Assembly: GCA_964406825.1 (NCBI GenBank)
Contig: CAYOTG010000001.1
Coordinates: 1 to 26,944 of the forward strand
From: an uncultured bacterium
GTDB lineage: Bacteria > Fidelibacterota > Marinisomatia > SCGC-AAA003-L08 > D37C17
Direction of reading: 5' to 3'
DNA length: 26,944 nt
Part shown: positions 2,144 to 21,013 of the stretch, in pieces
Numbering within the stretch: position 1 is the first letter of the stretch
Layout: each line of letters begins with the position of its first letter
Notes under the pieces: generated by a model
Told to the model about the DNA's origin: nothing
Database searches by the model: none
Seen by the model: only the letters and a program-made list of their open reading frames with translations
Position numbers and translations under genes: made by a program

Positions 2144-5017
2144 ATGTATAAAAATTTTTTAATTATAATTTTGTTTATACCACTTTTTGCTGGTACTACA
2201 GGTAAAATTAGAGGGAGAGTAATAGATTCATTATCTAAAGAACCCGTGCCCGGATGTGTAATTCATTTGGGGAAAACTGATTATGGAACATTAGTTGATA
2301 ATAATGGAGATTATTTTATTTTAAATATTTCTCCAGGAATATATACCCTCCATGCTACAATGATGGGATATAATGAGTATGTAATCCAAAATATTGAAGT
2401 TAATATTGATTTAACATTAACAATTAATATAGATCTTAAAGAATCTTTTATAGAATTACAAAGCGTAATTGTCCAAGCTTCACCTAAACTTATTAATAAA
2501 AATTTAACATCTACAACAGCTATTATAACTGATGAGGCTATATCAAGATTACCTGTTAATGAGATTTCAGAAATTTTAAATTTACAAGCAGGGTTTATAG
2601 ATGGGCATTTGCGAGGAGGTAGAACTGGTGAAGTTGCATATTGGGTTGATGGTATGCCTGTAACAGATAGCTATGATGGTAGTAGTATTATAGATGTTAA
2701 TAAGGATACAGTAAAAGAAATGCAATTAATTTCAGGATCTTTTAATGCTGAATATGGGCAGGCAATGAGTGGTGTCGTTAATATTATAACAGATGAAGGT
2801 TCAAATAATTTTGGTGGGAATATGGATGTTTATATAGGAGATTATATTAGTAGACATAATGATAAATTTAGGAACATAGACAATATCGATTTCATCAATA
2901 GTACAAGAAATCAAAACTTTAGTATTTATGGCAGTATTATAAGAGATAAATTATTTTATTATATTAGTGGTAGGCATGTATACTACCAGGGTGTGCATGA
3001 AGGCATAAGGGAATATACTCCTCAATCTTATGGTTATCAGCTAGAAGATTTAGTAACTGAGAGTGAATATTGGCATGTTTTAGGTAGTAATTATGATAGC
3101 GATGTATATGTTAATAACATAGAATGTGGAGGCCCCCTTAATTGTGGAGATGATAGTCAAAATTATTTAAATAATCTTTTAACTTCTCACACCACACCAA
3201 ATCCTATTGGGGATAATAAGTTTATTCCAATGGATTGGAATTTAAAAAAATATGGTCAATTCAATTTAATATTTAAACCATTTAGTAATATGAAAATTAA
3301 GTATTCTCATTTTACAGACAATGTTGCATTCCAAGAATATGATCGTTATTATCAGCTTAATCCTGATGGTAATTTATCAAAGTATAGATTAGGGCAAACT
3401 AACATGCTTCAGATTAATAATATTATTAATAAAAATTCTTATTTTTCATTGGGGATTATTCAATATAAAAAGAAGTATCAACATTTCTCATTTAATAATC
3501 TTACAGATTATGTTCATAGTGATTTGAATAATCAAAATACTCCAGCATATAGTTATTCTGTAGGAGGTGTCAATCAGAATAGATTTAGCAGAGAAACAAT
3601 TTCTAGTACATTTAAACTAGATTATGTGAATCAAATTAATAGTTTACATCAATTAAAAACAGGGATTGAGTATAGGGAACATGCTATATCATATGAAGAT
3701 ATTAATTTACAGTATTATGTTGATGGTGGTTTTAATCCAATTTATAATGACCCATTTGTTACTCCCTTTATTGATGATATATCTTCAATTAATACAAGTA
3801 TTTATGATTTTGACCCTTATGAATTTAGTTTATATTTTCAAGATAAAATTGAAATGGATGAAATGATTATTAATATAGGTTTTCGTTATGATTATTTTAA
3901 TCCAAAAGGGCGATTACTTTCAGACCCATCAGATCCATTTATTTATGATCCAATTAAGCCAGAACATATATATGATTGCAGTAATTTTGATGGTTATTGT
4001 GGTGACAATGAAGCACTCCAGTCATTGGATGATAGATTAGAATATTGGTATAAATCTACACATTCCAAATTCATGTTAAGTCCACGTCTTGGAATGTCCT
4101 TCCCGCTTTCAGATCAGGGTGTAATTCATTTTTCATATGGACATTTTTTTCAAATTCCAAAATTTGAACTTTTATATTATAATGCAGATATTGCTCTTGA
4201 TAGAGGTGGTACAGGTAATATTGGCGTGATTGGGAATCCTGACTTAGAACCTGAAAAAACAGTTAGTTATGAAATTGGAACCCAATATATGCTAGATGCT
4301 AATAGTGCTATTGATATGACCCTATATTTTAGAGATATAAGAGATTTAACAGGTACCAGAACAGATTTTATTTATACATTTAATGGAGCTACATATAGTC
4401 AATATACTAACTCTGATTTTGCATATGTTAAAGGTTTAGTGATGTCATATAAGAAAAATTTTAATAATGGTTTTTCAATAACTTTTGATTACACCCTCCA
4501 AGAAGTAAAGGGCACTGCATCTGATCCTTTTGATGCATACAATGCATCAATTGCTAATGAATACCCAGAAGTACATCTTATTTATCTTGATTGGGACCAA
4601 CGACATACAATTAATACTACCCTATATTATAATACTGAATATTATGGTATTGGTATTATTAGTAAAATAGGTTCAGGCCAACCATATACCCCCTTAGTAA
4701 ATTCCAATTTTTCAAATTTGATTAATAATTCTAAATTTAAACCTATGACATTTAATATTGATTTAAAAGGAACTTTGAAATTTAAAAAAATTAATAAATT
4801 AATGATGTATTTTAATATCTATAATTTATTTGATAACCTCAATCATTTAAATGTCTATAATGATACGGGTAGGGCAGATAGAACATACTACCTAAATGAA
4901 GCTTTAAGTCAAAATACAAGTCAAATAATTAATTCTGTTTATGATTGGTTTAATAATGAAACATTTTATTCATCACCTAGAAGACTGGAAATAGGATTTA
5001 GATATGAATTTGATTAA
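2144..5017 (+). CDS. TonB-dependent receptor with N-terminal carboxypeptidase-regulatory-like domain (not SusC type), 957 aa
   Basis: Signal peptide, then TTGKIRGRVID (CarboxypepD_reg-like). Plug motifs LRGGRTGEVAYWVDGMPV and SGSFNAEYGQAMSGVVNIIT. Barrel motifs GFRYDYFNP, FSYGHFFQIP, GNPDLEPEKT. C-terminal strand RRLEIGFRYEF. Confidence 0.93.
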   Translation: MYKNFLIIILFIPLFAGTTGKIRGRVIDSLSKEPVPGCVIHLGKTDYGTLVDNNGDYFILNISPGIYTLHATMMGYNEYVIQNIEVNIDLTLTINIDLKESFIELQSVIVQASPKLINKNLTSTTAIITDEAISRLPVNEISEILNLQAGFIDGHLRGGRTGEVAYWVDGMPVTDSYDGSSIIDVNKDTVKEMQLISGSFNAEYGQAMSGVVNIITDEGSNNFGGNMDVYIGDYISRHNDKFRNIDNIDFINSTRNQNFSIYGSIIRDKLFYYISGRHVYYQGVHEGIREYTPQSYGYQLEDLVTESEYWHVLGSNYDSDVYVNNIECGGPLNCGDDSQNYLNNLLTSHTTPNPIGDNKFIPMDWNLKKYGQFNLIFKPFSNMKIKYSHFTDNVAFQEYDRYYQLNPDGNLSKYRLGQTNMLQINNIINKNSYFSLGIIQYKKKYQHFSFNNLTDYVHSDLNNQNTPAYSYSVGGVNQNRFSRETISSTFKLDYVNQINSLHQLKTGIEYREHAISYEDINLQYYVDGGFNPIYNDPFVTPFIDDISSINTSIYDFDPYEFSLYFQDKIEMDEMIINIGFRYDYFNPKGRLLSDPSDPFIYDPIKPEHIYDCSNFDGYCGDNEALQSLDDRLEYWYKSTHSKFMLSPRLGMSFPLSDQGVIHFSYGHFFQIPKFELLYYNADIALDRGGTGNIGVIGNPDLEPEKTVSYEIGTQYMLDANSAIDMTLYFRDIRDLTGTRTDFIYTFNGATYSQYTNSDFAYVKGLVMSYKKNFNNGFSITFDYTLQEVKGTASDPFDAYNASIANEYPEVHLIYLDWDQRHTINTTLYYNTEYYGIGIISKIGSGQPYTPLVNSNFSNLINNSKFKPMTFNIDLKGTLKFKKINKLMMYFNIYNLFDNLNHLNVYNDTGRADRTYYLNEALSQNTSQIINSVYDWFNNETFYSSPRRLEIGFRYEFD

Positions 5018-8000: not shown

Positions 8001-8795
8001 ATTAAAGATGGCATGCCTCTTGCTAATAATGATATTGATTTTGTTCTGGATGTTTCTGTTGATACTTTAAGTTTCACAGGATTTGAATCATTTGTTTCTC
8101 CAAATGATTATATGATTGTATTTAATGATAATCCAGAATGGAATAAAGAATTCAATTGTTTATTAACAAATTTTAAGATATATGATATTACAAATAATTA
8201 TGAACTTGATTATTATTTTCAAGGTAATCAGCAAAATAATGAAATTGATGATTTAGATAGGATAGCTATTCTTGAAAACTATACTGATAATGAGAACCTT
8301 TATACTTGGAATATTGGTTTTTCTTATTTCCCAAGCCAACAGGTTACTGAACCAATCTTAGAATTTGGAAGTGGTGATACGCTTTATATTTATACAAAAA
8401 AACCATTTAGAAATGGTGATGAATATTTGTTGACATCATATGCTCCTGAAGCTAGTTCCTCATATGAAAATATTAATTTATCAAATATTAAAGTTGTTCC
8501 TAATCCTTATATAGCCGCAACAGCAATTGAGTCTGCTTTACCTCCTGGTATTTCAAGTGGAAGAGGTGAAAGAAAGGTTGAATTTCAGAATGTCCCTAAT
8601 GATGCAATTATAAAAATATATAATATTAGAGGTCAACATATTAGAACATTAAAACATGATGGAAATATTTTTGATGGATCAATAAGCTGGAATCTTAGAA
8701 CAACCGAAAATATGGATATCGCTTATGGTGTCTATTTGTATGTTGTTCAATCTTTAGTTGGTAGTAAAAAAGGGAAAATAGCAATTATTAAATGA
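5004..8795 (+). CDS. Large secreted acidic protein with DxDxDG Ca-binding repeats, FN3-like domain and T9SS-type-A/FlgD-like C-terminal domain; function unknown, 1263 aa
   Basis: Signal peptide (...FLLLLSIVLS-Q). Acidic repeats DGIDNDGD, NGLDDDLDGLIDE, DDGIDNDGDW. FN3-like PPAKPNVTIVPGNSEVTLYWD...GYKIYR...NGRTYYYAVTAYD. CTD-like IKVVPNPY...IKIYNIRGQHIRTL...WNL...GVYLYVV...GKIAIIK. Overlaps the receptor by 14 nt. Confidence 0.85.
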   Translation: MNLIKIKKSIFLLLLSIVLSQDESGDIYRRYGIHNGNLVKTVYSNWGVVGQPGDKGPRGAWINDNNGYIGDDSVLVGAQVEIQDEQGDNIVFHSVVTCPVDRPSSTGPEQSSSGLRWGFEPIAGYLNPSQLYVATSTNPDTWPNIWPDENCNWSDDWCGYFGKDTQYIQQESFYVMNDNNDHEFNYSDKNEWGVSFKPSPISNPSMNGLGLEVKVRGMQWQQVLAQDCIFFLYEIKNTSETEYKKVVLGELVGTYIGSVEVEADDDWSFFDVNSDLTYTGDFDNNCSDNNPNWAGDVGMVGYAFLESPGNPYDGIDNDGDFGISSSMFNEESFINRIVNVGDDVIIIDDDYNRIKIQVNQDTTLTSQGREISVIIGESIFNEGNEIDGSINPNAFNGLDDDLDGLIDENYYLHYRQVRKFYNEETGQEEILFDLLNPKAYVNYFDYQNNSNGFIDEDLSDLIDERRDDGIDNDGDWVISVHDVGSDGISNTFDSDGTEGNGIPDAGEPNFDQTDPDESDQIGLTSFDYFVPASSYPMSDDEALWEKLSPGFFDVPESINNAEPTSGEDGDFIFGSGYFPLLPGQTERFSIALIYGESKFDLDRNKDVVQEIYDNDYQFPPPPAKPNVTIVPGNSEVTLYWDRVAETTMDPVLLDYDFQGYKIYRATDPDFNDVRNITNAYGIVENYSPITQFDLIDEIDSLFYPSYEIFQQSGGLSFYLGNNTGLVHSYIDSNLINGRTYYYAVTAYDEGDPNHTYPSENTKYITVLPSGEIITDKNTGYATPTSFVQGFQIDDIQIENVGLDIGTGIINCDIINNEDVIGHEYVIEFWDSSNDLIDNDLDGNIDNNIDEIIPTTTFYSVQDLNDIVINFELNLYDTTFYSFEKRNIIQDSFELRYSNNQIVSSELYEINFVNGEIKVDQEELPNDFQAIFNYYPIYKSPYIQGAQWNGDLINNDNGDSYDDYDGSSLWIEEVIDAEVFDGMTIQFNNDWNIEFDSLQWIKDGMPLANNDIDFVLDVSVDTLSFTGFESFVSPNDYMIVFNDNPEWNKEFNCLLTNFKIYDITNNYELDYYFQGNQQNNEIDDLDRIAILENYTDNENLYTWNIGFSYFPSQQVTEPILEFGSGDTLYIYTKKPFRNGDEYLLTSYAPEASSSYENINLSNIKVVPNPYIAATAIESALPPGISSGRGERKVEFQNVPNDAIIKIYNIRGQHIRTLKHDGNIFDGSISWNLRTTENMDIAYGVYLYVVQSLVGSKKGKIAIIK

Positions 8796-9787
8796 TGAAG
8801 ATTATATATATATTATTTTTTTCTATATTTTTTGCATCGCAGTCTAATGTAGGGACCACTGCTGCACAATTTTTAGGTATAGGCGTTGGAGCAAGAGCCA
8901 TGGCTATGGGAGGAGCATTTACATCGATGGTTGGAGAGCCTAGCTCAATGTATTGGAACCCTGGTTCTATCTCTAATATAGAAAATAATCAGGTAGAAAT
9001 TTTGAATACAAATTGGTTGATTGATACTCAGTGGCATTATCTTGGCTACATTAATAAAATCAATCATAGAAGTGCAATGGGTGTAAATTTATTTTATCTT
9101 GATTATGGGGAAGAAGAAATTACTACAATCTATGAACAAGGAGGAACTGGTAATTATTGGTCCGCTTATGATTTGTCTTTAGGATTATATTATGGAATGG
9201 ATTTGACTAATAAATTTTCATTTGGTGGTGGTGCAAAATATATTAAACAATCAATTTATAATGAAACAGCTTCTACTATTGCAATTGATGTTGGATTATT
9301 ATATCAAAATTATACCAATAATTATAGAATTGGCATGAGTATTTCTAACGTTGGACTTAATATGATTCTTAAAGGCAATGACTTATATTTTAATTGTGAT
9401 CCAGATCCAGATAACCTAGGAAATAATGATAATATCCCATGTGTTTTAGAAACGGGAGAATACCCGCTGCCTATTTTTTATAGAATAGGTTTTTCTAAAG
9501 ATTTTAATATTAATGATAATTTATTGTTTACAACTTCTTCTGATTGGGTTATCCCAAGCGATGATGTTGAACATTTAAATATTGGTTTTGAATTTAATTA
9601 TTCTGATAAAGGTTATTTGCGATTTGGTTATAGGCAATTAGGGAAACAAGATACTGAAGAAGGGTTAACTTTTGGTATAGGGGGAAAATGGAATATTTAT
9701 GGAAGAAATTTAAATATTAATTACAATTATCATGATTTTGGAATTTTTGGTTATGTCCAGTATTTTGAATTTATTTTTAATTTATAG
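8792..9787 (+). CDS. PorV/PorQ-family outer-membrane beta-barrel, 331 aa
   Basis: Signal peptide. Family motifs GTTAAQFLGIGVGARAMAMGGAF and SMYWNP. Alternating beta-strand pattern ending YFEFIFNL. ATGA overlap with the upstream gene. Confidence 0.85.
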   Translation: MMKIIYILFFSIFFASQSNVGTTAAQFLGIGVGARAMAMGGAFTSMVGEPSSMYWNPGSISNIENNQVEILNTNWLIDTQWHYLGYINKINHRSAMGVNLFYLDYGEEEITTIYEQGGTGNYWSAYDLSLGLYYGMDLTNKFSFGGGAKYIKQSIYNETASTIAIDVGLLYQNYTNNYRIGMSISNVGLNMILKGNDLYFNCDPDPDNLGNNDNIPCVLETGEYPLPIFYRIGFSKDFNINDNLLFTTSSDWVIPSDDVEHLNIGFEFNYSDKGYLRFGYRQLGKQDTEEGLTFGIGGKWNIYGRNLNINYNYHDFGIFGYVQYFEFIFNL

Positions 9788-9789
9788 TT

Positions 9790-11634
9790 ATGATGAAATA
9801 CATTTATATATTATTTTTATCCTTTTTATATCCGGTATCTGTAACATTTAGCGTAGATATGCAAGAACAATATTTATCAAGTGGGAATGTTTATTTAGCA
9901 GGTTCTGATTCATTAACACAGACTTTTTTTGGCTCTTATGCAGATAGTGTTATTATTAATCCATGGACACCCGAAGATGTAGAACTTGTTGATATTGATT
10001 TTACAGGCGTATTTTCAAAAACTATTGAATTGCAATCCAATATTACTTATGTATATAAATTTGTCAATGGATTAAATTATGAATTAGAGGGGGAATCTGA
10101 TAGATTCATTTATATAGCAAATCAGGATACTATTTTAGATATTGCTTGTTACAATAAAGTTGATGAATCTTGTGATGACATGAATATTACATTGGTCCCT
10201 GTTACATTTTTTGTTGATATGCAACAAACAGTAATATCAGATAATGGTGTTGGTTTACTAGGTGCAAACGATTCCTTTACAAATTTTGGGTATGATTTTA
10301 TAACAGGTAATCCCATCCCCGTTTATGACCCTTCCTATTTGAGCCTGCAAGATATTAATAATGAAAATATTTATTCAATAACATTATTACTGGAACCAGG
10401 TGTTAATTATCAATATAAATTTGTTAATGGTAATGATTTTAGTGGAGCTGAACAAAGCCAAAGATCTATTACTGTCTCTCCAGTATCTGGCTACTATCTT
10501 AATGAAGTTTGTTTTAATTCTTATGATGATTGTGAAAATTTTACCACTTTATTAAATACTTTGACTTTTAAAACGGATGTATCAAATGCTGTTTCTGATA
10601 ATGGCCTTGAACTTGGAGATATGTTAATTGTTAAATGGGGTTATGGAGAAACACAACCTATTGAACGATTGGATACACTGCAATTAATGCCATTTTCATA
10701 TATTTATAAAATAGATATTGATTCAGTTTATATTTCTTCAGAGGTTGATTTATACTATCAATATTATAAAGTAATTGATGATAATGAATACAGAGAAATT
10801 TTTTTTAATTTTGATTATTTAGGTTCTGATATTGTTTTAGCGGAAAGGCGCTTCTTTGATTTTGAAGATTCTTTAGATTCTCAAGATATTTTAGTGGAAG
10901 ATGTTATTGATTCTAATGTTGCCCCAAGGAGGATGCCTGTTTTTGCAAATACTGAATCTATAGGAGAAGAATTAGAAGTTACATGGAGTATTGACCTTAG
11001 GCCAGCTTATTATCAAATTTTATTTGGTGATACCTTATTTGATATACAGGGAACATATCATGTTGATAATGTTGACAGCTTATATGAATGGGGTGTTTGG
11101 ATTAATGGCCCTGCTTCTACTCCTGCAAATGGGCAAGCCTGGACGGAATGGGGACCAACCTTACAAGGCACAACATCAAAAAAAATGTGGGATGATGGAA
11201 CCCATGGTGATAGTGTCGCAGACGATCATATATATACTTTGATTTTAACTTACGATGAAAGTTCATCAATATCTCAAGAATGTAAGTTTGGTATAAAAGG
11301 AGGAGACAATGAATCTTCTTATGGCCTTAATCACTATGTAAATATTAATTCATTTGATCCTAATATATATGTTTATTGGGGATCAATTAATCCAATTTTT
11401 TATAATAGGTGGGATTATGACACAAACCAGCCCATATTAGATTTTTGTGATGCAAATGGTGATACGAATCAAGATGGCATTATTAATGTTATTGATATTA
11501 TTCTACTAATGAATGTGATTCTTGATAATCCAACGCTTTCATCAGAGGAAATTTGTCTTTTTGATTTAAATGATGATAATATAATTAATGTTATTGATAT
11601 TATAGTTATAACTCAAATTATTCTTGAGGATTAA
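9790..11634 (+). CDS. Secreted non-catalytic multidomain protein: two CBM20/CBM48-like modules, a choice-of-anchor-X-like segment and a C-terminal dockerin, 614 aa
   Basis: Signal peptide. Repeated module VTFxVDMQ...L.G...YKFVNG...E...R...C, twice. Motif KMWDDGTHGDSVADDHIYT begins near 11182. Dockerin at 11446-11631. No catalytic motif recognised. Confidence 0.75.
   Translation: MMKYIYILFLSFLYPVSVTFSVDMQEQYLSSGNVYLAGSDSLTQTFFGSYADSVIINPWTPEDVELVDIDFTGVFSKTIELQSNITYVYKFVNGLNYELEGESDRFIYIANQDTILDIACYNKVDESCDDMNITLVPVTFFVDMQQTVISDNGVGLLGANDSFTNFGYDFITGNPIPVYDPSYLSLQDINNENIYSITLLLEPGVNYQYKFVNGNDFSGAEQSQRSITVSPVSGYYLNEVCFNSYDDCENFTTLLNTLTFKTDVSNAVSDNGLELGDMLIVKWGYGETQPIERLDTLQLMPFSYIYKIDIDSVYISSEVDLYYQYYKVIDDNEYREIFFNFDYLGSDIVLAERRFFDFEDSLDSQDILVEDVIDSNVAPRRMPVFANTESIGEELEVTWSIDLRPAYYQILFGDTLFDIQGTYHVDNVDSLYEWGVWINGPASTPANGQAWTEWGPTLQGTTSKKMWDDGTHGDSVADDHIYTLILTYDESSSISQECKFGIKGGDNESSYGLNHYVNINSFDPNIYVYWGSINPIFYNRWDYDTNQPILDFCDANGDTNQDGIINVIDIILLMNVILDNPTLSSEEICLFDLNDDNIINVIDIIVITQIILED
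11446..11631 (+). other. Dockerin-like domain 2
   Basis: C-DANGDTNQDGIINVIDIILLMNVIL ... C-LFDLNDDNIINVIDIIVITQIIL. Confidence 0.85.
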
Positions 11635-11702
11635 TTTTTATTTACTAATATTTATTGTGGTAAATTAATTTCTATCCCAGAATTTATTTTATGCTTAGAA
11701 GT

Positions 11703-13118: not shown

Positions 13119-13120
13119 AA

Positions 13121-14161
13121 TTAGAAAGAGAATTTAATGGTATAAAGATGAATATCCCCTAATATACCTAATGTTTTGAAAGTATAATCTAAATCAAAAA
13201 AGTTGTAGTCAGATACATAAAATCTTAATCCTCCTCCATAAGTCAAGCCATATTGAGAATCTTTAAGAAAAATTCCCTTATAGCCTGCACGCAAGAAGAA
13301 TGAAGCTTTACCCGGTATTAAATAAGTTAGTTGTGTACCAATATTTAATGATTCGTTATTATTATTTGGATGTAATGCATCTAAAGCAACCAACATTCTT
13401 ATTTTTTCAGAATATATTGGCTGTACTGAAAATCCCATTCTAAAAATCAAAGGGAGTTCCCACTCAGAAGTTTTATATAGACCCTCGACATCATCATAAT
13501 TACCATATTCATCTGGTTCAGGATCAATAGGAACCATAAGATCTATCCCATCGTAACGCAATCTGGTACCATAATTTGATATACTCATTCCTATCTTCAT
13601 CCCTTGATTTCTCTTATTAGTTGGTGAGAAGAAATTTGTTGTTACTAAAACACCAAAATCAATTGCAAATGCATTAGCACTCATATGCCATATATTTGAT
13701 GAAATATATTTAGCAGTGGCTCCAAATGAGAACCAATCTACTAATTTCCTCCCAAAAGAGATACTTGCTGCAAATTCATTAGCAGAATAAAACTCTCCTG
13801 TTCCTTCTGGCTGAGAAACTGTTGTAACAGGTTCATTACCATACCCCATATAATTCATAGTAAATGCTAAAGTCCCATACTCTTCATAGTTAATAGCAAC
13901 ACCTGTATAAATATTATTGATATCAGCAACCCATGGCTGATACATGAAAAATGTTTGTTTGCTATTAACATAGGATAACCCTGCTGGATTCCAATATGCT
14001 GATGAGATATCATTTGCAACACTAACATACGCACCCCCCATTGCAGTGGCAGCGCTTCCCACATCAATTTCTAAAAAATTAGCTCCTGTTGTTCCATTCC
14101 CATTAATTTCAATAGAAAAAAGAGTTGATAAAAATATAATATTTAAAATATATATTTTCAT
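13121..14161 (-). CDS. PorV/PorQ-family outer-membrane beta-barrel, 346 aa
   Basis: Signal peptide. GTTGANFLEIDVGSAATAMGGAY and SAYWNPAGL. Ends YTIKFSF. ATGA overlap with the upstream gene. Clear paralogue of 8792-9787. Confidence 0.87.
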   Translation of the reverse strand: MKIYILNIIFLSTLFSIEINGNGTTGANFLEIDVGSAATAMGGAYVSVANDISSAYWNPAGLSYVNSKQTFFMYQPWVADINNIYTGVAINYEEYGTLAFTMNYMGYGNEPVTTVSQPEGTGEFYSANEFAASISFGRKLVDWFSFGATAKYISSNIWHMSANAFAIDFGVLVTTNFFSPTNKRNQGMKIGMSISNYGTRLRYDGIDLMVPIDPEPDEYGNYDDVEGLYKTSEWELPLIFRMGFSVQPIYSEKIRMLVALDALHPNNNNESLNIGTQLTYLIPGKASFFLRAGYKGIFLKDSQYGLTYGGGLRFYVSDYNFFDLDYTFKTLGILGDIHLYTIKFSF

Positions 14162-17100
14162 TTTATAATAGCAAATTTTCCAATTTTATGCTTATTGTTA
14201 ATCTTTGATTGAACATGATAAATATACATCCCTGCTGCCACTTGAAGACCTTCATTACTTAAAAGATCCCAATAGGCTATACAATCTTCTGGATTTTCAC
14301 AATCCACATTATTCATATTTATCTCATTAACCAAAACACCGCTTACTGTAAAAATTTTAATAGCACATTCAGATGGAACATGTGTAAACATTATTTTACG
14401 TTCTTGGCTTTGATTTGGATTTGAAAATGCTTCTTCCATTAGATTAGACCCTACATATGGATTTGGGACAACTTTGATTCGGTCCATTTGTTCATCATGG
14501 AGACTTATACTAATAGAATCAGGAGCATTGGTATGTACAAACAATGTATCTATTTCTAAAAATGGGGAATCATATGTAATCCCAAATACATCCCCTGGCT
14601 CTGGTTCCTCTGCAAAAGATAGCGCGAAATGAGTATCATCCCAAAATAGTAATTCTGGTCCTAAAGAATCATCGAGATATGTAGTTCCAACTAAAATTTT
14701 ATCTTCAAGTTTTTCATATTCGCCACTATTATTTAAATCAATAACTAATAAATCAAAAATCATATTATTTGATTCATTATAAACATAAAAATCAAAATTT
14801 ATGATTTTTGACCAAACGCCATTATCTGTTAAAAATTGGGAAGGATTTAATCCAAGATCTTGATCTTCTTCATCTAATAATTGATAATTTAAATCTTCAG
14901 ATGAAATAATAACAATTTCTTCATTTTGATATTCTTCATCTTCTGTAAATATTATTTGACAATTCCATGGTTTTATTTTACTCACTCTTTCACTAATACT
15001 TATAATAGGTTCAATAACGTTACTATAGTTTCCGGGGAGCCATCCACTGTCTTTAAATAATCCTTCCTTAATATTTTGGATTGAAAAAACTAATCCATCA
15101 ATCATATCAGTTGTAATCATTTTATCTGGATCTAGTGTCCAATATTCATATTGAGGGTAATTATTTTCTTCAAAAATAAATTGATTTTGTATATTCCCAG
15201 AATTTCCTGTTTTACTAAATAGTAAGCGTAATGTGTTCCATTGCCCACAAGCTAAATCCTGTTCGCAGTTATTTTGATTATTAATTTGCGAACAATATTC
15301 ATCTCCAAAATTATTTTTTTCACATGATGATTCATCCCAATTGCAATCATCAATGTTTAAACATTCCTCTTCACTATAACTTTCACATATTATATCAGAA
15401 CAAAAATATTCATCTAATATTTCACTCCAATTACAACCTATTTGATTTGAACAATCAGATTCATTATTTAAGCTGGTACAGCTAATATTAGTAGAACAAT
15501 AATTCTCTTCCCTGTATATTTCATATCCTGATGTAACCAAAAAGTTTTCATCATCGGTATCATTTAAAAATGTAAGTATATAATTTTGATTATCTAAAAC
15601 TAAATTAGGTGAGTAAACATCTACATTAAGATATCCAGTTCCAGATGTTTCTGAGTCTACATCTACCCAAGGTTCAACAACCCCTGCAGAAGAAGCTCTT
15701 GGAATAACTACAGCTACATTACTTGCAAGACTATTGAATATTACTTCTTCATCTTCATTTAAACTAATTTTTGCCTTATTTTCTGATGGAGGAATGCCAC
15801 TTTCAAGTTGTTCGGTTGGTTCTAATCCATAATCATAAGCAACAACAGCATAGTAGTATGTTCTGCCATTTTCTACATCTGTATCAATATATTTATGTTC
15901 AATCCCAGTATCTTCTCCTAAATAATAAGCTGCTCCAAAAACTGTTGCATAATCAGCAAACCCTTCTATACCATCTATTTTATCACACTGATAAATAGGA
16001 TCATAAAACATGGGATTTCCATATCCATCTGTTATAATTTGTGCATCCCTAAAATATTTATCTGTTGAACGATAAATTTTATACCCTTCAAAATCATTTT
16101 TTAAACTATCTGGAAGAAAATTATCAACTGAACTTTCTGCTATATCATCCCATGTTAAGATAACATGCTCATCGCCCGATTCAGCTGTTACTGTTGGTCG
16201 GGTAGGGGGGGTAGCAAATCGATAATCTGTTTCATAGATTAATTGAACAGTTTGTTTTAATGCAAATAGAGCAGGAACCTCAGGCTCAACTCCCCCAGGA
16301 GATCCTTGAATATCATCTGTAGAATGAATTTCAGCCATAGATATTCTTTCTGTCTTACCCTTATATAAAGGAAAAACAGCAGATGAAAATAATTCAACCA
16401 TATTCGAGGGTGTCCCTTCAAATTGATCAAATGCATTGTTTATATCTTGGATAACCATTAATGAGTCCCACATTATTTGATCATTTTTAAACCATTTAGT
16501 TGTAGCATCTTCCTGATGTCCATCAATGGGGAATAATTTAAAAGATGTAAGCCCTAACATATCAGATTCAGAGACATCTGTTTCTCCAAAGTTAGGCTCA
16601 CATCCTACTCCTTCAACACAATCAGGTTTTCCATTACATTCACCTTCATCTGGGCCATTGTAATTACTATCATCAGGGCCAACACCATCAAGTCCCACAT
16701 CGTCATTTATAATAGCACATATCACATTGTTTGTTAAAACAATGTTTCCATCTACATCAATTGCAGGTGTCCAATCACCATCTTCATCACCTTCATATCT
16801 TGATTCTGATTCTATATACATACCTGCATCATTATCTCGTGATTCATCCACCATCCCATCAGCATCATTATCAATTCCATCATCTGAAATACCAGGACTT
16901 TCTAAAAAGGCAAATCCCATAATACCAGGAGTACCACCACCAAATCCTGTAGCATTATAATCCCATGAATAGGCTAAATCAAGATCTACATCAAAATAAC
17001 CTACTTCATCATCACCGCTTTGATCTGTTTCTCCACCAATAGCATTGTCAACCCAATAGCCGAATGCCATTTCATTTATATTATAATCTGAAATATTGCT

Positions 17101-18013
17101 GATATTGTATTCCCAAAAAAGAGCATCTCTGACCAATGGATTGTTCCACTGGAAAGCTCGTGATTCAACTCTTAGCCCAAGACCTCCCCATGGTTCTCCA
17201 CCTTGATCAAGTAAATTCCCAGGAATAAATTCACCGTCAATAGGATAATACTCAAAAGTTTTTGTAGGATAACAATCAAAGTCACAACCATTAATACAAT
17301 TCTCTTGATTATCATTTATACCATAATTATTGCCAAGTATATCTTGACACTGCCATTTAGTATTTACAGGAAGGTATTCTTGGTCTTGCGCATCATTTAC
17401 TACAAAATAAGTTTCAAGATCAGCATACTGAACGCCTCTACCAAATCTTCCATCCCATTCACCAGGCCACTTAGTTGTTGTCCCAGATGATGGCCATGCT
17501 GATGGCCAACTATATGGATCATCACTCATTGCAGGAGAAGGGTTATTTTCAGCAGGATTATGATAACCAAATACAGGATGGAATCCCCATAATGTCCCGT
17601 AAGCATTATCCTCATTATAATCCATTTCTTCTCTATAGGCAGTTTGAAGAAAATAAATTTCATGTAGTGAATTATTTGGATTATTAATATCTATTTCACT
17701 ATCAATAACATTTGTATCAATGTTTGTATTATCACCATCATCTTCGATATAAACTTTTGCACCAACAAGTAGTGCTACGCCATCAAGCATTCTATACCCT
17801 GTCCCATCATTGGGCCAAATTGATACATCATATAACCCCCCAGGCTCCCAATCAGATAATTGTGTATTATTTTTTAAAAAATAGAAGAATTCTATTGCCA
17901 TCCATTTTAGCTTCTTGATTAGCAGAAGGATCCCCGGCAGAATCTTCGGGGCCATCATATTCTTGACTGGCAAGTAAAGATAATAAGAGAATAATATTAA
18001 TAATCCATTTCAT
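14158..18013 (-). CDS. Large secreted acidic protein, paralogue of 5004-8795, interrupted by a +1 frameshift near codon 47 (1284 aa if repaired)
   Basis: ATG at 18013 directly follows the receptor stop and encodes a signal peptide, MKWIINIILLLSLLASQ-EYDGPEDSAGDPSANQEAKMDGNRILLFFKK*, with TAA at 17869-17867. The rest continues in the +1 frame (NNTQLSDW...). It shares AFLESPG..DGIDND, EPNF..TD..ESD..GLTSF, GYKIYR.TD, NGRTYYYAV.AYD, IKVVPNPY and GK.AIIK with the + strand paralogue. Confidence 0.85.
15238..15498 (-). repeat. Three tandem Cys-rich peptide repeats, C-x7/8-C-x5-C-x1/2-W, inside the large protein
   Basis: CTSLNNESDCSNQIGCNW, CESYSEEECLNIDDCNW, CSQINNQNNCEQDLACGQW; 12 Cys in 87 codons. 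Confidence 0.8.
17870..17881 (-). other. T6A6 homopolymer tract at the frameshift point
   Basis: The minus strand reads CTA TTT TTT AAA AAA TAA TAC. Removing one A gives TTT TTT AAA AAT AAT ACA CAA (FFKNNTQ) and joins the signal peptide to the long ORF. Confidence 0.85.
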
Positions 18014-21013
18014 TTAATATCTAATTTCTATTCCTATTTTAATTGATCTTGGAGCACCGTAATGAGTTGGGTCCTGATAAGTATCTTCAATTGTTGTGTA
18101 ATTATTTCTAAAGGAAGCCTCGCTGGATTCACTCAGAATAGCACTGTATGCCCTCCCTGTTTGACTATTAACCGTATATTCATTAAGAGTGTCAAATAGG
18201 TTATATACTTCAAATGTTAATCTAGCATTAATAACAGGTATATTATAATAGCTAGCCAAATTGATTAAATAATTTGATGGTTTATATGCATTATTAGGTT
18301 CTAAATTTATTTCAGCAAGTGCATTTTCAGATATTGGTTCAAATGTAAATGCGGTACCTGAGTTAAAGTAAGCACTTACGGTTGTCCCAAATTTTTCTTT
18401 ATTATATCCAAATGTTACATTAAATGTATGCCTCTGGTCCCAGCTTAAGGGTAAAAGACGTGTTAAAGGATCTTTATTTTCTCCTTCTCTATCAAATGAT
18501 GATTGAGGAGAATCTGCAATCCCTTTGGTATGTTGATAGGTATAGTTTGCTAAAAAACTTAATGGTCCGTTCTGATAATCAAAAATCAACTCTATTCCTC
18601 TTGCATTCCCATAATCTTTATTTGCGTACAAACCATATTTAACTTCTCTTAATGTTTGAATTGTTGTTGTTGTTAATAAATTATATATATCTTTATTAAA
18701 TATTACAATTTCATAGCTCATAGAGTTATTAATTTCTTCCCAATATCCAAATTCATAATTGACTGTTTTTTCTGCTTTTAAATTAGGATTCCCAAGTATT
18801 ATCTGATAATCATTTGATGGTATTGTCCAATCAGAATTAGCATACATTGCATACAGTGGGGGCATCTGGAAAAAATGGCCATAACTAAATCGTACCAATG
18901 CATCATCTATTTGATAGGATAAAGCAAAGCGTGGGCTTATTTGATAATTAACCTCTGATTTTAATGGTATACTTCCAAAAATAGTTATATCACAATCTTC
19001 ATTTGGAATCCAATCTGGATTTAATAAATTTCCAAAATCATCGAGTTCCGGTTCACAATAAGAGGCGTAATATGCATTATCAGGATCTTGGTAATTTGAA
19101 GGATAGTAAGTATTTGGATCGAACATATCATACCTTAATCCAAAATTGATTACCATATAACTGAATTCCATTTTATCTTGAATATATGCAGAATATTCAT
19201 AAGATTTTATATCATATTCTTCAGCAAAAGGGCTTGATGGGTCCCCCTCATCAATTGTTGGTATATAATCAGAATAATCATCAGGATTAGCATCTTTTAT
19301 TGTATAGTGCCTTATTGATAAATCATGAGTAAAATTATCAAGTCCAAATTTTAAATTATGTACAGAATTTATTTGGGAATTAAAATCAAATTTAAAATTA
19401 AAATCATTAATTGTTTTATTATTATGAACTTTATCATGTCCTCCTTGCAAAAAACTAGATTCACTAACAGTATATTCATCAGCAACATATCTTGAATCAA
19501 AAGGATCCTCATAAACATATGTTCCATCTTTTTTATTATTATAAGAAAGTTTTAAATCCATAAAAGATGAAGAACTGAACATATAATTAATAAATAATGA
19601 ATAGAAATTATTTTTAGAATGATTTGTTGCTCTTGAATCAGGTGAATATTTATAAAAATTATACCCATCTATTATTGAACTTTCATACTGATTGAATGAA
19701 TTCATTAATGAAAATTTTAAATTAATAGATGGTTTAAAGGTTAATTTTGTTAACATTGATGAAGCAATAAAATTATTCATAGGAACAAAATTATCTTCTT
19801 TTAATCTGATTTGAGCAGGTATAAAACGTGCTGTTCTTCCATAGTAATTTCCAAGATCAATACATCCGATCTCATCTATTAAAGATTGTGCGCCACTATA
19901 AAAAAGAAGGTATTCTTCTTCTTCATTAATTGGAATAAATTCACAATCTCCATATTGGATACATTCAAATTCTTCCATAATATGCTCCCCTGTTTCAGGA
20001 TTATAAATCTCGCCACCTTTTGAATTGGAGCAATAAGTTTCAATGACGTGTGATCCTGAATGTTCTGAATAATAATTTGAAGGGTTATCGTACATAAAAT
20101 CACTTTGGTCCTCAACGTTAAAAAAATCATACCCATTTAAATGTCCTAGATTATTTTGATATCTAGAATTCACGAAAAATGTTAATTTATTTTTAATAAT
20201 TGGACCACTAAATTGAAAATTATAATCTTGATTCAGATTAACGATAGGGTTATCAAGTCCAATAAAGATATTATTGTTAGATGATAAGTAGTTTTCATAC
20301 CTAGTAGAAAAAGAACTCTCGAATTTATTACCACCATCCTTTGTAACCTGATTCACTACACCACTCATAGCTCTTCCATATTCGGCATTGAAGGTTCCAG
20401 TGATAATTTCTAAATCTCGTAAGACACTAGGTTCTAAATATACTGTTTGAAAGTCTCGTCCATATGTATCATCAGTTCGCATACCATCAACTAAATAGGT
20501 GACTTCTGTATTTCTCCCACCTCTAAAATGCCCATCTACAATACCTGCTTGCATTGTAACAATAGATTGAACATCTTTAATTGGGAGAATATCTATTTGT
20601 TCCCCAGATATATTTTTTATTGTTCCTGATTGATCTTTTTTTGTGGAAATTTTTGAAGCTGTAACAATTACTTCTTCCCCTTCGATAAAGGATTCTTCCA
20701 TTTGAGCATCAATACTTGTTGTTTTATTTACAGATACAATAACATTTTCAACTATAATTGATTTAAAGCCAATCATGTTAATTTTTAAATTATAGGTTCC
20801 TGGATACAAATTAAGAATATAATAGAACCCTTCATAGTCAGTAGCAATACCAACACCAGTTTCAATAATTGAAACACTAGCTCCAATTATTGGTTCGTTA
20901 TTGGAATCAGATATAATCCCAGATATTTTTCCTGTTGTTTGACTATAAAGACTACATACAAAAAAAAATATAACTAAATTTTTATATTTTTTATTTTGTA
21001 TGATTTTAGCCAC
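18014..21013 (-). CDS. TonB-dependent receptor with N-terminal carboxypeptidase-regulatory-like domain, paralogue of 2144-5017, 999 aa
   Basis: GTG start (exact start uncertain). Signal peptide, TTGKISGIISD, FRGGRNTEVTYLVDG, TGTFNAEYGRAMSGVVN, GLRYDMFDP, FSYGHFFQMP, GNPNLKAEKT. Ends SIKIGIEIRY. Confidence 0.93.
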   Translation of the reverse strand: MAKIIQNKKYKNLVIFFFVCSLYSQTTGKISGIISDSNNEPIIGASVSIIETGVGIATDYEGFYYILNLYPGTYNLKINMIGFKSIIVENVIVSVNKTTSIDAQMEESFIEGEEVIVTASKISTKKDQSGTIKNISGEQIDILPIKDVQSIVTMQAGIVDGHFRGGRNTEVTYLVDGMRTDDTYGRDFQTVYLEPSVLRDLEIITGTFNAEYGRAMSGVVNQVTKDGGNKFESSFSTRYENYLSSNNNIFIGLDNPIVNLNQDYNFQFSGPIIKNKLTFFVNSRYQNNLGHLNGYDFFNVEDQSDFMYDNPSNYYSEHSGSHVIETYCSNSKGGEIYNPETGEHIMEEFECIQYGDCEFIPINEEEEYLLFYSGAQSLIDEIGCIDLGNYYGRTARFIPAQIRLKEDNFVPMNNFIASSMLTKLTFKPSINLKFSLMNSFNQYESSIIDGYNFYKYSPDSRATNHSKNNFYSLFINYMFSSSSFMDLKLSYNNKKDGTYVYEDPFDSRYVADEYTVSESSFLQGGHDKVHNNKTINDFNFKFDFNSQINSVHNLKFGLDNFTHDLSIRHYTIKDANPDDYSDYIPTIDEGDPSSPFAEEYDIKSYEYSAYIQDKMEFSYMVINFGLRYDMFDPNTYYPSNYQDPDNAYYASYCEPELDDFGNLLNPDWIPNEDCDITIFGSIPLKSEVNYQISPRFALSYQIDDALVRFSYGHFFQMPPLYAMYANSDWTIPSNDYQIILGNPNLKAEKTVNYEFGYWEEINNSMSYEIVIFNKDIYNLLTTTTIQTLREVKYGLYANKDYGNARGIELIFDYQNGPLSFLANYTYQHTKGIADSPQSSFDREGENKDPLTRLLPLSWDQRHTFNVTFGYNKEKFGTTVSAYFNSGTAFTFEPISENALAEINLEPNNAYKPSNYLINLASYYNIPVINARLTFEVYNLFDTLNEYTVNSQTGRAYSAILSESSEASFRNNYTTIEDTYQDPTHYGAPRSIKIGIEIRY

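What the first reader, a model, noticed from the sequence alone, without database searches (positions are those of the whole stretch)
2144..21013. Candidate SusD-independent glycan-uptake machine: TonB-dependent receptor + CTD-bearing giant protein + dedicated PorV, present twice
Seen: the same three-gene cassette occurs in the same order at 2144-9787 (+) and 21013-13121 (-), among GH13, GH3, CBM-like proteins and a sugar symporter. There is no SusD and no convincing lipoprotein. Established: in Bacteroidota PULs a SusD lipoprotein caps the SusC transporter, and in the T9SS PorV binds type-A C-terminal domains of cargo. Inference: each giant protein keeps its CTD bound to its own co-encoded PorV paralogue. 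That would hold it on the surface beside the receptor as a glycan-capturing lid, doing the SusD/SusE job through a barrel anchor instead of a lipid. I know of no characterisation of this triad, but could not check the literature.
Basis: partly seen in the sequence, partly recalled or inferred. Interest (0 to 1): 0.88.

Follow-up and report, generated by a model that had tools for sequence, protein, structure and literature searches.

The report
SusD-less TonB receptor, giant protein, barrel
A marine SAR406 (Marinimicrobia) bacterium carries two old copies of a three-gene outer-membrane unit (a TonB-dependent importer, a 1,260-residue unannotated surface protein and that protein's own PorV-like barrel) that sits where SusC/SusD sits in sugar-utilisation operons, is kept in the same order across several related phyla, and appears in no paper I could find.

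Summary
Two diverged copies (30-34% identity) of TonB-dependent receptor, ~1,270-aa protein and PorV/PorQ-family barrel lie at 2144-9787 (+) and 21013-13121 (-).

Orthologues place cassette 1 in alpha-glucan loci (LacI, GH13, GH77, sugar symporter). They place cassette 2 in beta-1,3-glucan loci (GH16, GH17, GH3).

In 80 loci from species-representative genomes of Marinimicrobia, KSB1, Calditrichota, Ignavibacteriota, Kryptonia and Cloacimonetes, every locus with enough flank keeps all three genes. Median intergenic gaps are 8-11 nt.

The giant protein ends in a diverged type-A type IX secretion C-terminal domain (CTD): profile-profile probability 97%, and a predicted fold matching the PorZ CTD at Z 11. 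Three of three family members with an ordinary type-A tail have neither barrel nor receptor beside them. Its N-terminal part is predicted as a galactose-mutarotase-like supersandwich, and no SusD-like fold is seen.

No SusD was found in this genome or in three 96-100% complete genomes of the same family.

Anchoring by the barrel, contact with the receptor and glycan binding are all inferred, not shown. GldM and GldN were not detected.

This scan met the same trio in at least eight other genomes, with the same verdict. I call it a new variant of a known kind, of high interest.

The parts
2..2119 (+). GH13 alpha-amylase-family enzyme with C-terminal type I dockerin (5' end cut by the contig start)
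   Evidence: Pfam Alpha-amylase 72 bits, Dockerin_1 34 bits; NCBIfam TreZ/pullulanase/GlgB-like partial hits
2144..5017 (+). TonB-dependent receptor 1 (957 aa): CarboxypepD_reg N-terminal extension, TonB-box-like SVIVQAS, Plug, 22-strand-size barrel; not SusC/RagA subfamily
   Evidence: orthologues always directly upstream of the giant gene
5004..8795 (+). Giant protein 1 (1263 aa, P0001): signal peptide, galactose-mutarotase-like supersandwich with invariant acidic DxDxDG loops, FN3, variable beta domains, CTD; alpha-glucan clade
   Evidence: orthologue contexts
8481..8795 (+). Family-specific T9SS-type C-terminal domain of giant 1 (residues ~1160-1263), type-A-like with a ~14-residue insert after the PNPY strand
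   Evidence: CHU_C 23.2 bits and Por_Secre_tail 11 bits, both sub-threshold; hhalign to type-A CTDs prob 97.2%, E 4e-11; fold match to PorZ CTD 5m11 Z 11.1, rmsd 2.2
8792..9787 (+). PorV/PorQ-family outer-membrane barrel 1 (331 aa), private partner of giant 1
   Evidence: NF033709 182 bits (cut-off 90); PorQ 104 and PorV 77 bits, both under their equivalog cut-offs; F. johnsoniae PorV 6h3i_F E 4e-9
9790..11634 (+). Fourth gene of cassette 1 (614 aa): SusE/F-like surface glycan-binding candidate ending in a dockerin; orthologues in other phyla end in a type-A CTD and carry CBM20/48
   Evidence: Dockerin_1 27.7 bits, weak CBM_20 E 0.08; body residues 16-550 are 31-60% identical to the gene after the barrel in alpha-glucan loci; those carry Por_Secre_tail/FlgD_ig/CBM20
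11703..13118 (-). Fourth gene of cassette 2 (471 aa), unknown function, weak SurA-N-like N-terminus
   Evidence: 48% and 29% identical to the gene right after the barrel in L007 and L008; SurA_N_3 E 0.02, below threshold
13121..14161 (-). PorV/PorQ-family barrel 2 (346 aa)
   Evidence: NF033709 210 bits; 34% identical to barrel 1
14158..18013 (-). Giant protein 2 (1284 aa when read through); frameshift in the A6 run 17870-17875 in this assembly; beta-1,3-glucan clade
   Evidence: intact P0122; orthologue contexts with GH16/GH17/GH3; the CTD part of the PorU model hits 14176-14424 at E 1e-5
18014..21013 (-). TonB-dependent receptor 2 (999 aa), same architecture, TonB-box-like EEVIVTAS
21006..23900 (-). 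Secreted multi-module protein: cytochrome c-like domain, CBM48/CBM20-like modules, dockerin
   Evidence: CBM region 62% identical to the gene upstream of the receptor in L007
23930..25531 (-). Sodium:solute (sugar) symporter, inner-membrane step
   Evidence: SSF 314 bits; TIGR00813 383 bits
25634..26944 (+). GH3 exo-beta-glucosidase (3' end cut by the contig end)
   Evidence: Glyco_hydro_3 239 bits; exo-beta-1,3/1,6-glucosidase-like 275 bits, under that model's cut-off

Best explanation
Each cassette is the outer-membrane core of a SusD-less polysaccharide-utilisation locus. Cassette 1 serves alpha-glucans (starch, glycogen, maltodextrin). Cassette 2 serves beta-1,3-glucans (laminarin). The receptor imports oligosaccharides using TonB energy, and the SSF symporter takes them across the inner membrane. 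The giant protein is exported by Sec and then across the outer membrane by the type IX route, recognised through its diverged type-A-like C-terminal domain. That domain is not cleaved off. It stays bound to the co-encoded PorV/PorQ-family barrel, which holds the giant protein on the cell surface next to the receptor. There the protein acts as the receptor's glycan-capture partner, filling the genomic and probably the functional position of SusD. Candidate binding parts are its large carbohydrate-enzyme-type supersandwich, its calcium-loop region and its clade-variable beta domains. Accessory binding proteins and enzymes of the locus are held at the surface separately: by dockerins in this genome, and by ordinary type-A CTDs in other phyla. 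Shown here: gene content, conservation of order, paralogue-specific CAZyme context, homology and predicted fold of the CTD, co-variation of CTD type with barrel and receptor, and congruent trees. Inferred: export route, retention on the barrel, contact with the receptor, and glycan binding.
For: The trio occurs twice, with 30-34% identity across all three genes. Synteny: 65/65 loci with upstream flank contain the receptor and 71/71 with downstream flank contain the barrel, with median gaps of 8 and 11 nt, across Marinimicrobia, KSB1, Calditrichota, Ignavibacteriota, Kryptonia and Cloacimonetes. Giant-1 orthologues sit with LacI/TrmB, GH13, GH77, GH57 and SSF. Giant-2 orthologues sit with GH16, GH17, GH3 and SSF. 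In more distant clades the next gene is a CBM20/48 protein with a type-A CTD, or a GH66, which gives the order susC / susD-position / susE-F-like / GH13. CTD: hhalign 97.2% against type-A CTDs and a PorZ CTD fold match at Z 11.1. PorZ is a cargo whose uncleaved CTD binds PorQ (PMC10202324). Seven of 102 full-length cluster representatives carry an ordinary type-A CTD instead, and all three of those examined lack both an adjacent barrel and an adjacent receptor. Trees of the three genes are congruent: Mantel r 0.90, 0.81 and 0.72, with each window cassette grouping with the same loci in all three trees. The N-terminal domain matches the supersandwich of GH94, GH15, GH65 and GH116 enzymes at Z 15.5. 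The model is nearly all beta, with no SusD-like helical fold. No SusD was found in this genome or in three same-family genomes 96-100% complete. The giant family is present in 92 of 101 genomes of the phylum, usually with several matches per genome. SprA, a PorU-like protein and 15 ordinary type-A CTDs are in the genome.
Against: There is no direct evidence for any protein-protein contact, surface exposure or sugar binding. A multimer prediction could not be run, and no metatranscriptome held the locus. The supersandwich fold shows no function by itself, and the variable region matched no known carbohydrate-binding module. Congruent trees follow from tight linkage alone. GldM, GldN and PorP models found nothing in this genome or in complete relatives, so a standard T9SS is not demonstrated. 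Sixteen of 101 genomes of the phylum have both SusD-like genes and the giant family, so the two are not mutually exclusive. Some distant clades have the order receptor-barrel-giant followed by a SurA-like PPIase, and some have YidC nearby, which hints that not every clade is glycan-related. Only three canonical-CTD members were examined.
Confidence: 0.55

Rival explanations
1. The giant protein is a barrel-anchored surface glycan-binding protein or adhesin that works beside the receptor but not on it. It would resemble SusE/F or SprB more than SusD. The operon link would serve co-expression only.
For: Cognate barrel anchoring of large adhesins is known for SprB-SprF and for type-B CTD cargo. 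The model is an elongated chain of beta domains. Members with an ordinary CTD live without a receptor, so the body can function alone.
Against: The receptor is adjacent in 65 of 65 informative loci with gaps of a few nucleotides. Receptor and giant trees are the most congruent pair (r 0.90). A separate CBM20/48 binding protein is already encoded downstream.
Confidence: 0.2
2. The giant protein is a scaffold that organises the locus's enzymes and binding proteins around the receptor. It would act as a utilisome organiser, with its invariant acidic calcium loops as docking sites.
For: Invariant DxDxDG-type loops occur across the family. The accessory proteins here carry dockerins, of which the genome has about 55-60, plus a protein with at least two cohesins.
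Against: No cohesin domain was detected in the giant protein. The family is equally conserved in phyla whose accessory proteins carry CTDs and not dockerins. A separate cohesin protein exists on contig C173.
Confidence: 0.08
3. The giant protein is an unrecognised surface enzyme, such as a new glycoside hydrolase, lyase or transglycosylase family.
For: Its largest domain is the supersandwich that accompanies catalytic domains in GH15, GH65, GH94 and GH116. Many Asp, Glu, Trp and Tyr residues are invariant.
Against: In those enzymes the supersandwich is the non-catalytic N-domain, and no (alpha/alpha)6 or TIM-barrel catalytic domain is predicted. The same conserved core serves both alpha- and beta-glucan loci. 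There were no CAZyme HMM hits.
Confidence: 0.07
4. The receptor is not an importer. It would be an Oar-like TonB-dependent exporter or assembly factor for the giant protein, making the trio a self-contained surface-display unit.
For: Myxococcus Oar, a receptor with the same CarboxypepD_reg architecture, is needed for PopC secretion (PMC6434023, listed). Orthologous receptors hit the OMP_b-brl_4 model. GldM and GldN were not detected.
Against: The CTD is homologous to T9SS signals, and SprA and a PorU-like protein are present. The loci carry regulators, sugar symporters and periplasmic or cytoplasmic glucan enzymes that need an outer-membrane import step. The window receptors themselves did not hit OMP_b-brl_4.
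Confidence: 0.05

Closest known systems
SusC/SusD (RagA/RagB) core of Bacteroidota polysaccharide utilisation loci, with SusE/F/G
   Same: A large TonB-dependent transporter with an N-terminal CarboxypepD_reg extension is followed directly by a surface partner gene, then by binding proteins and a GH13. Regulator and inner-membrane transporter are present, and several substrate-specific paralogous loci occur per genome.
   Different: The partner is a ~1,260-aa all-beta T9SS-type cargo, not a ~550-aa helical lipoprotein. It needs a third gene, a PorV-like barrel. The receptor fails the SusC/RagA model (50 bits against 368). No SusD gene is present here.
PorZ-PorQ and PorU-PorV pairs of the T9SS attachment complex
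   Same: A cargo with an uncleaved type-A-like CTD is held on a PorV/PorQ-family barrel. The giant's CTD model matches the PorZ CTD best (Z 11.1).
   Different: Those are single housekeeping parts of the secretion machine. Here the pair is multiplied, sits in catabolic operons and is tied to a TonB-dependent receptor.
Type-B CTD cargo with co-encoded PorP/SprF barrels (SprB-SprF; PG1035-PorP)
   Same: A giant surface protein has a private barrel gene immediately downstream, a CTD thought to stay uncleaved, and paralogous pairs in each genome.
   Different: The barrel is of the PorV/PorQ family, not PorP/SprF (none detected). The CTD aligns to type A with an insert and reaches CHU_C only below threshold. 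The role is nutrient uptake, not gliding.
BtuB-BtuG and other TonB transporter / surface-lipoprotein complexes of Bacteroides
   Same: They share the principle of a transporter capped or served by a surface-exposed capture protein.
   Different: In those the partner is lipid-anchored. Here the proposed anchor is a separate beta-barrel.
Oar TonB-dependent transporter of Myxococcus xanthus
   Same: The receptor has a CarboxypepD_reg + Plug + barrel architecture. Relatives hit the Oar-like barrel model.
   Different: Oar is linked to protein export, with no CAZyme context and no PorV-like partner.

Membership tests
TonB-dependent receptor | Plug domain plus TonB_dep_Rec beta-barrel above Pfam thresholds | tested here: met
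   Receptor 1: barrel 83.5 bits, Plug 25.2 bits. Receptor 2: barrel 110 bits, Plug 29.7 bits
TonB-dependent receptor | TonB box ahead of the plug | tested here: inconclusive
   SVIVQAS and EEVIVTAS lie between the N-terminal domain and the plug (alignment). This was read by eye; no model was run.
SusC/RagA subfamily (TIGR04056) | Full-length match above 368 bits | tested here: not met
   Receptor 2 scores 50 bits over model positions 2-116 only; receptor 1 has no hit
SusD/RagB | SusD_RagB (PF07980) protein next to the receptor or in the genome; helical TPR-like fold | tested here: not met
   None in any window ORF. None in the genome, which is 71% complete. 0 of 3 same-family genomes at 96-100% completeness. 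The giant model is almost all beta.
PorV/PorQ family (NF033709) | Score above 90 bits | tested here: met
   182 and 210 bits; PDB PorV 6h3i_F E 4e-9
PorV proper (NF033710) or PorQ proper (NF033711) | Equivalog cut-offs of 250 and 220 bits | tested here: not met
   PorV 77 and 89 bits; PorQ 104 and 94 bits
T9SS type-A CTD (PF18962) | HMM match above 27 bits | tested here: not met
   11.1 and 10.6 bits; 6 of 9 other family members give similarly weak hits
T9SS type-A CTD (PF18962) | Homology and beta-sandwich fold of the CTD | tested here: met
   hhalign probability 97.2%, E 4e-11, against 21 canonical CTDs; PorZ CTD Z 11.1, rmsd 2.2 A, 21% identity
T9SS type-B CTD (PF13585) with PorP/SprF partner | CHU_C above 27 bits and a co-encoded PorP/SprF barrel | tested here: not met
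   23.2 and 15.2 bits; one relative (P0086) reaches 28 bits. There is no TIGR03519 match in the genome, but the control genomes did not respond either.
Type IX secretion system in the host | SprA translocon, PorU, PorV, and the PorK/L/M/N motor and ring | tested here: inconclusive
   SprA_N 45.5 and 36.3 bits. PorU-like 153 + 101 bits, under the cut-off. 15 type-A CTDs. GldM and GldN were not found here or in three complete relatives, and the controls were weak. GldK and GldL were not tested.
Polysaccharide utilisation locus (PULDB definition) | Adjacent susC/susD pair with CAZymes | tested here: not met
   CAZymes and a receptor are present but there is no susD. PULDB predicts PULs from the susCD tandem (PMC5753385), so such loci escape it.
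Dockerin-cohesin (cellulosome-like) display | Dockerin on enzymes and a cohesin partner in the genome | tested here: met
   Three dockerins in the window; 62 dockerin matches genome-wide; a protein with at least two cohesins on C173, 46 bits. Binding is not testable here.

The most novel reading that the evidence does not exclude
Receptor, giant protein and PorV-like barrel form one stable three-part outer-membrane machine. In it a type-IX-delivered, barrel-anchored protein does the lid and capture job that the lipoprotein SusD does in Bacteroidota. That would be a separate, phylum-spanning architecture for TonB-dependent glycan uptake, in lineages that make little use of surface lipoproteins. 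It is invisible to SusCD-based PUL prediction.
Probability: 0.35. Interest if true: 0.9.

Novelty: new variant of a known kind. Interest (0 to 1): 0.75.

Why it matters
SAR406/Marinimicrobia, KSB1, Calditrichota and Ignavibacteriota are abundant in oceans, sediments and bioreactors. Their glycan use is currently inferred from CAZyme counts alone, because PUL finders key on the susC/susD pair.

This trio offers a marker for their uptake loci. The giant family is in 92 of 101 sampled genomes of the phylum, usually with several matches per genome.

It also poses a clear structural question: how does a TonB transporter recruit a surface partner without a lipid anchor? And it links type IX secretion directly to nutrient import.

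It would extend the barrel-anchor principle (PorZ-PorQ, SprB-SprF) from secretion and motility to catabolism. The two window cassettes, one for alpha-glucan and one for laminarin, are a natural pair for testing specificity.

Tried and rejected
- **Expression evidence.** No RNA run holds the stretch. Laying contigs from four metatranscriptomes gave only 20-30-nt chance matches, so there is nothing on transcription or on the frameshift.
- **Whole-model Foldseek against PDB.** It returned only generic Ig/FN3 chains at TM below 0.1. VIA-align was needed to see the individual domains.
- **Variable region (residues 760-1160), folded separately.** The model had pLDDT 76. It matched only FlgK/FlgL-type beta domains and phage Ig-like domains (Z 9-10) and no carbohydrate-binding module.
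- **Sequence search of solved structures with the family profile.** No hit.
- **T9SS motor and ring, and PorP.** GldM, GldN and PorP models found nothing. I treat this as inconclusive, because three of the four control runs found the family in no control genome.
- **Literature.** Eight full-text searches combined PorV, PorQ, TonB-dependent, SusD, Marinimicrobia, Fidelibacterota, Ignavibacteria, KSB1 and type IX terms. I also read five papers. None described the trio.
- **Type-B CTD reading.** I considered it because CHU_C was the best single-HMM hit. I rejected it as the main label because the profile aligns end to end with type A and the partner barrel is not PorP/SprF.
- **unk471 as a SurA-like chaperone.** Only sub-threshold hits (E 0.02), and no significant similarity to the PPIase of the alternative-order loci.
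Full report
**What is in the window.**
The 26.9-kb window is contig C1 of a 1.08-Mb, 71%-complete metagenome-assembled genome of about 30% G+C. The nearest named relatives of its proteins are Candidatus Marinimicrobia (SAR406, now Fidelibacterota/Marinisomatota), followed by KSB1.

Twelve tightly packed genes fill the window:
- GH13 with a dockerin
- receptor 1, giant 1, barrel 1
- a 614-aa dockerin protein
- then, on the other strand, a 471-aa unknown protein, barrel 2, giant 2 and receptor 2
- a cytochrome-c/CBM48/CBM20/dockerin protein
- an SSF symporter
- and, back on the + strand, a GH3

Both receptors have the CarboxypepD_reg N-terminal domain, a Plug and a barrel. Both small genes exceed the PorV/PorQ-family cut-off (182 and 210 bits against 90). 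Both giant genes encode about 1,270 residues with a signal peptide and no database domain at normal thresholds.

The three paralogue pairs are 30%, 30-34% and 34% identical over their whole lengths. This is an ancient duplication of the entire cassette.

The second giant gene really starts at ATG 18013 and is interrupted by one extra A in the run at 17870-17875. An otherwise identical, intact 1284-aa protein is on record (P0122). The break is therefore an assembly error or a strain-level lesion.

No SusD is present in the window, in the genome, or in three genomes of the same family that are 96-100% complete. No N-terminus carries a convincing lipobox.

**Conservation.**
The giant protein belongs to a very large unnamed family.
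- More than 4,500 hits scored among the best candidates.
- It has 2,906 clusters at 50% identity with E <= 1e-3, and 442 with E <= 1e-30.
- In 101 sampled genomes of the phylum it is present in 92, usually with several matches per genome. A lineage of about 1-Mb genomes lacks it in 0 of 6.
- SusD-like genes occur in 16 of the same 101 genomes. The two systems can coexist, but the giant family is by far the commoner.

A scan of one genome per species found at least 579 loci. The best 80 came from Marinimicrobia, KSB1, Calditrichota, Ignavibacteriota, Kryptonia and Cloacimonetes, plus MAGs with other or no phylum label.
- All 65 loci with at least 1.5 kb upstream contain the receptor. It is directly upstream in 61. 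Three have the order receptor-barrel-giant, and one has a frameshifted giant gene.
- All 71 loci with at least 0.9 kb downstream contain the barrel next to the giant gene.
- Median gaps are 8 and 11 nt.

Trees of the three genes from 61 complete loci are congruent. Mantel r is 0.90, 0.81 and 0.72, and 33-39 of 60 splits are shared. Window cassette 1 groups with L009/L044 and cassette 2 with L007 in all three trees. This shows inheritance as a unit. It does not prove physical interaction.

**Link to sugars.**
Four giant-1 orthologues from long contigs lie between a LacI or TrmB regulator, GH13 enzymes, GH77 or GH57 and SSF symporters. These are alpha-glucan loci.

Two giant-2 orthologues lie with GH16, GH17, GH3, a CBM protein and a symporter. 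These are laminarin-type loci, which matches the GH3, symporter and CBM protein next to cassette 2 in the window.

In more distant clades the gene after the barrel is a roughly 500-aa CBM20/CBM48 protein with an ordinary type-A CTD, or a GH66 dextranase. The order is therefore receptor, giant + barrel, binding protein, amylase. That parallels susC, susD, susE/F, susG.

Not every clade is clearly glycan-related. The three loci with the alternative order are followed by a SurA-like PPIase, and two loci have YidC nearby.

**The tail of the giant protein.**
Single HMMs give only sub-threshold hits: CHU_C 23 bits and Por_Secre_tail 11 bits, with similar results in nine relatives.

A profile of 30 family tails aligns end to end with a profile of 21 canonical type-A CTDs. 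Fourteen of those come from this genome. The probability is 97.2% and E is 4e-11. The difference is a roughly 14-residue insert after the PNPY strand.

In the AlphaFold model the last 110 residues superpose on the CTD of PorZ (Z 11.1, rmsd 2.2 A, 21% identity). According to the T9SS effector review, PorZ keeps its CTD and is held by PorQ. Type-B cargo is likewise held by co-encoded PorP/SprF barrels (PMC10202324). The barrel-anchor principle therefore has precedents.

The family itself provides a natural experiment. Of 102 full-length cluster representatives, 95 end in the family-type tail (89 with the strict PNPY motif, 6 with a variant of it) and 7 end in an ordinary type-A CTD. All three ordinary-tail members whose contigs I read have neither a PorV-family gene nor a receptor beside them. 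The special tail, the private barrel and the receptor go together.

**The body of the giant protein.**
The model of residues 64-1263 (pLDDT 72, pTM 0.61) is almost entirely beta.

Its first ~555 residues contain a supersandwich of about 220 aligned residues. This matches the N-terminal domains of GH94, GH15, GH65 and GH116 enzymes, aldose epimerases and the YidC P1 domain (Z up to 15.5). It is interrupted by low-confidence acidic loops whose DxDxDG-type motifs are invariant across the family.

An FN3 domain follows, then a clade-variable region with no recognisable binding module, then the CTD. There is no SusD-like helical fold.

**Host machinery.**
The genome encodes SprA, a PorU-like protein, seven PorV/PorQ-family frames and 15 ordinary type-A CTD proteins.

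GldM, GldN and PorP models found nothing, even in three complete relatives. These models are trained on Bacteroidota, and the controls were mostly silent. The export route is plausible but not established.

**Mechanism proposed, and its weak points.**
I consider it most likely (0.55) that the trio is the outer-membrane core of a SusD-less utilisation locus. The receptor imports oligosaccharides. The giant protein is exported by the type IX route and kept on its private barrel through an uncleaved CTD. It serves as the receptor's surface capture partner.

Genes, order, context, tail homology and co-variation are shown. Retention, contact with the receptor and sugar binding are inferred.

The rivals are:
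- a barrel-anchored binding protein or adhesin that does not touch the receptor (0.2)
- a scaffold for dockerin- or CTD-bearing enzymes (0.08)
- an unrecognised enzyme (0.07)
- an Oar-like export role for the receptor (0.05)

**Comparison and novelty.**
The system works like SusC/SusD but fails both membership tests. The receptor scores 50 bits against the 368-bit SusC/RagA cut-off, and there is no SusD.

The giant-barrel pair resembles PorZ-PorQ and SprB-SprF, but it sits in catabolic operons, is multiplied by substrate and is tied to a receptor.

PULDB predicts PULs from the susCD tandem (PMC5753385), so these loci are missed. Eight literature searches and five papers read gave no description of the trio.

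This scan has met the same trio in at least eight other genomes, with the same conclusions. My tests here were made independently, before I read those notes. The CTD co-variation, the PorZ-CTD and supersandwich fold matches, the alpha- versus beta-glucan assignment of the two cassettes and the phylum tallies come from my own calls here; I did not compare them with those notes in detail.

**Side finding.**
The accessory proteins of this locus end in dockerins where their orthologues in other phyla end in type-A CTDs. The 1.08-Mb genome has about 55-60 dockerin matches and a protein with at least two cohesins. This suggests a cellulosome-like display system alongside type IX secretion.

Noticed in passing
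window 17867-18013 (- strand): Giant gene 2 starts at ATG 18013, which gives a signal peptide. It is broken by one extra A in the A6 run at 17870-17875. An intact 1284-aa protein, identical otherwise, is on record (P0122). The break is probably an assembly error at a T6A6 homopolymer junction.
   Followed up: yes
window 1940-2107, 11458-11622, 21033-21176; genome contigs C173, C2, C34 and others: All three accessory proteins of the locus end in type I dockerins. The 1.08-Mb genome has 62 dockerin matches and a contig-limited protein with at least two cohesin domains (C173). Some proteins carry a dockerin followed by a type-A CTD (C28, C127). This points to a cellulosome-like display system in a SAR406 bacterium.
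   Followed up: partly
window 9790-11634 versus L003:14926-17007, L004:15002-17059, L059, L069, L076, L086: The body of the 614-aa protein (residues 16-550) is 31-60% identical to the gene after the barrel in other phyla. Those orthologues end in a type-A T9SS CTD and carry CBM20/48, where the window protein ends in a dockerin. Orthologues have thus swapped one C-terminal anchoring module for another.
   Followed up: partly
window 21006-23900 (- strand): A c-type cytochrome-like domain (PSCyt1, Cytochrome_CBB3) is fused to CBM48/CBM20-like modules and a dockerin. The orthologue in L007 (62% identity over 499 aa) lacks the cytochrome and dockerin parts.
   Followed up: partly
window 11703-13118 (- strand); L007:15043-16344; L008:14669-16063: A conserved fourth gene of the beta-glucan cassette has no domain hit, only a sub-threshold SurA-N-like N-terminus (E 0.02). 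Loci with the order receptor-barrel-giant are followed by a true SurA-like PPIase. This may point to a periplasmic chaperone dedicated to the cassette.
   Followed up: partly
L080, L082, L087: A clade about 33-36% identical to giant 1 has the gene order receptor, barrel, giant. In L080 a SurA_N/rotamase protein follows. Its substrate context is unclear.
   Followed up: no
P0282, P0348 (L089), P0386 (L090), also P0318, P0367, P0369, P0374: Seven family members carry an ordinary type-A CTD. The three I examined stand alone without barrel or receptor. One of them sits next to a protein with cohesin, dockerin, fn3 and a CTD.
   Followed up: partly
own genome and same-family genomes G005, G017, G087: GldM, GldN and PorP/SprF models detect nothing, although SprA, a PorU-like protein, PorV-family barrels and many CTD proteins are present. 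Either the motor and ring are very diverged or the export route is reduced.
   Followed up: partly
phylum sample, family f6 / genus g9 (G023, G031, G039, G067, G075, G083): A lineage with roughly 1-Mb, 96-99% complete genomes lacks both the giant family and SusD. All other sampled families have the giant family.
   Followed up: no
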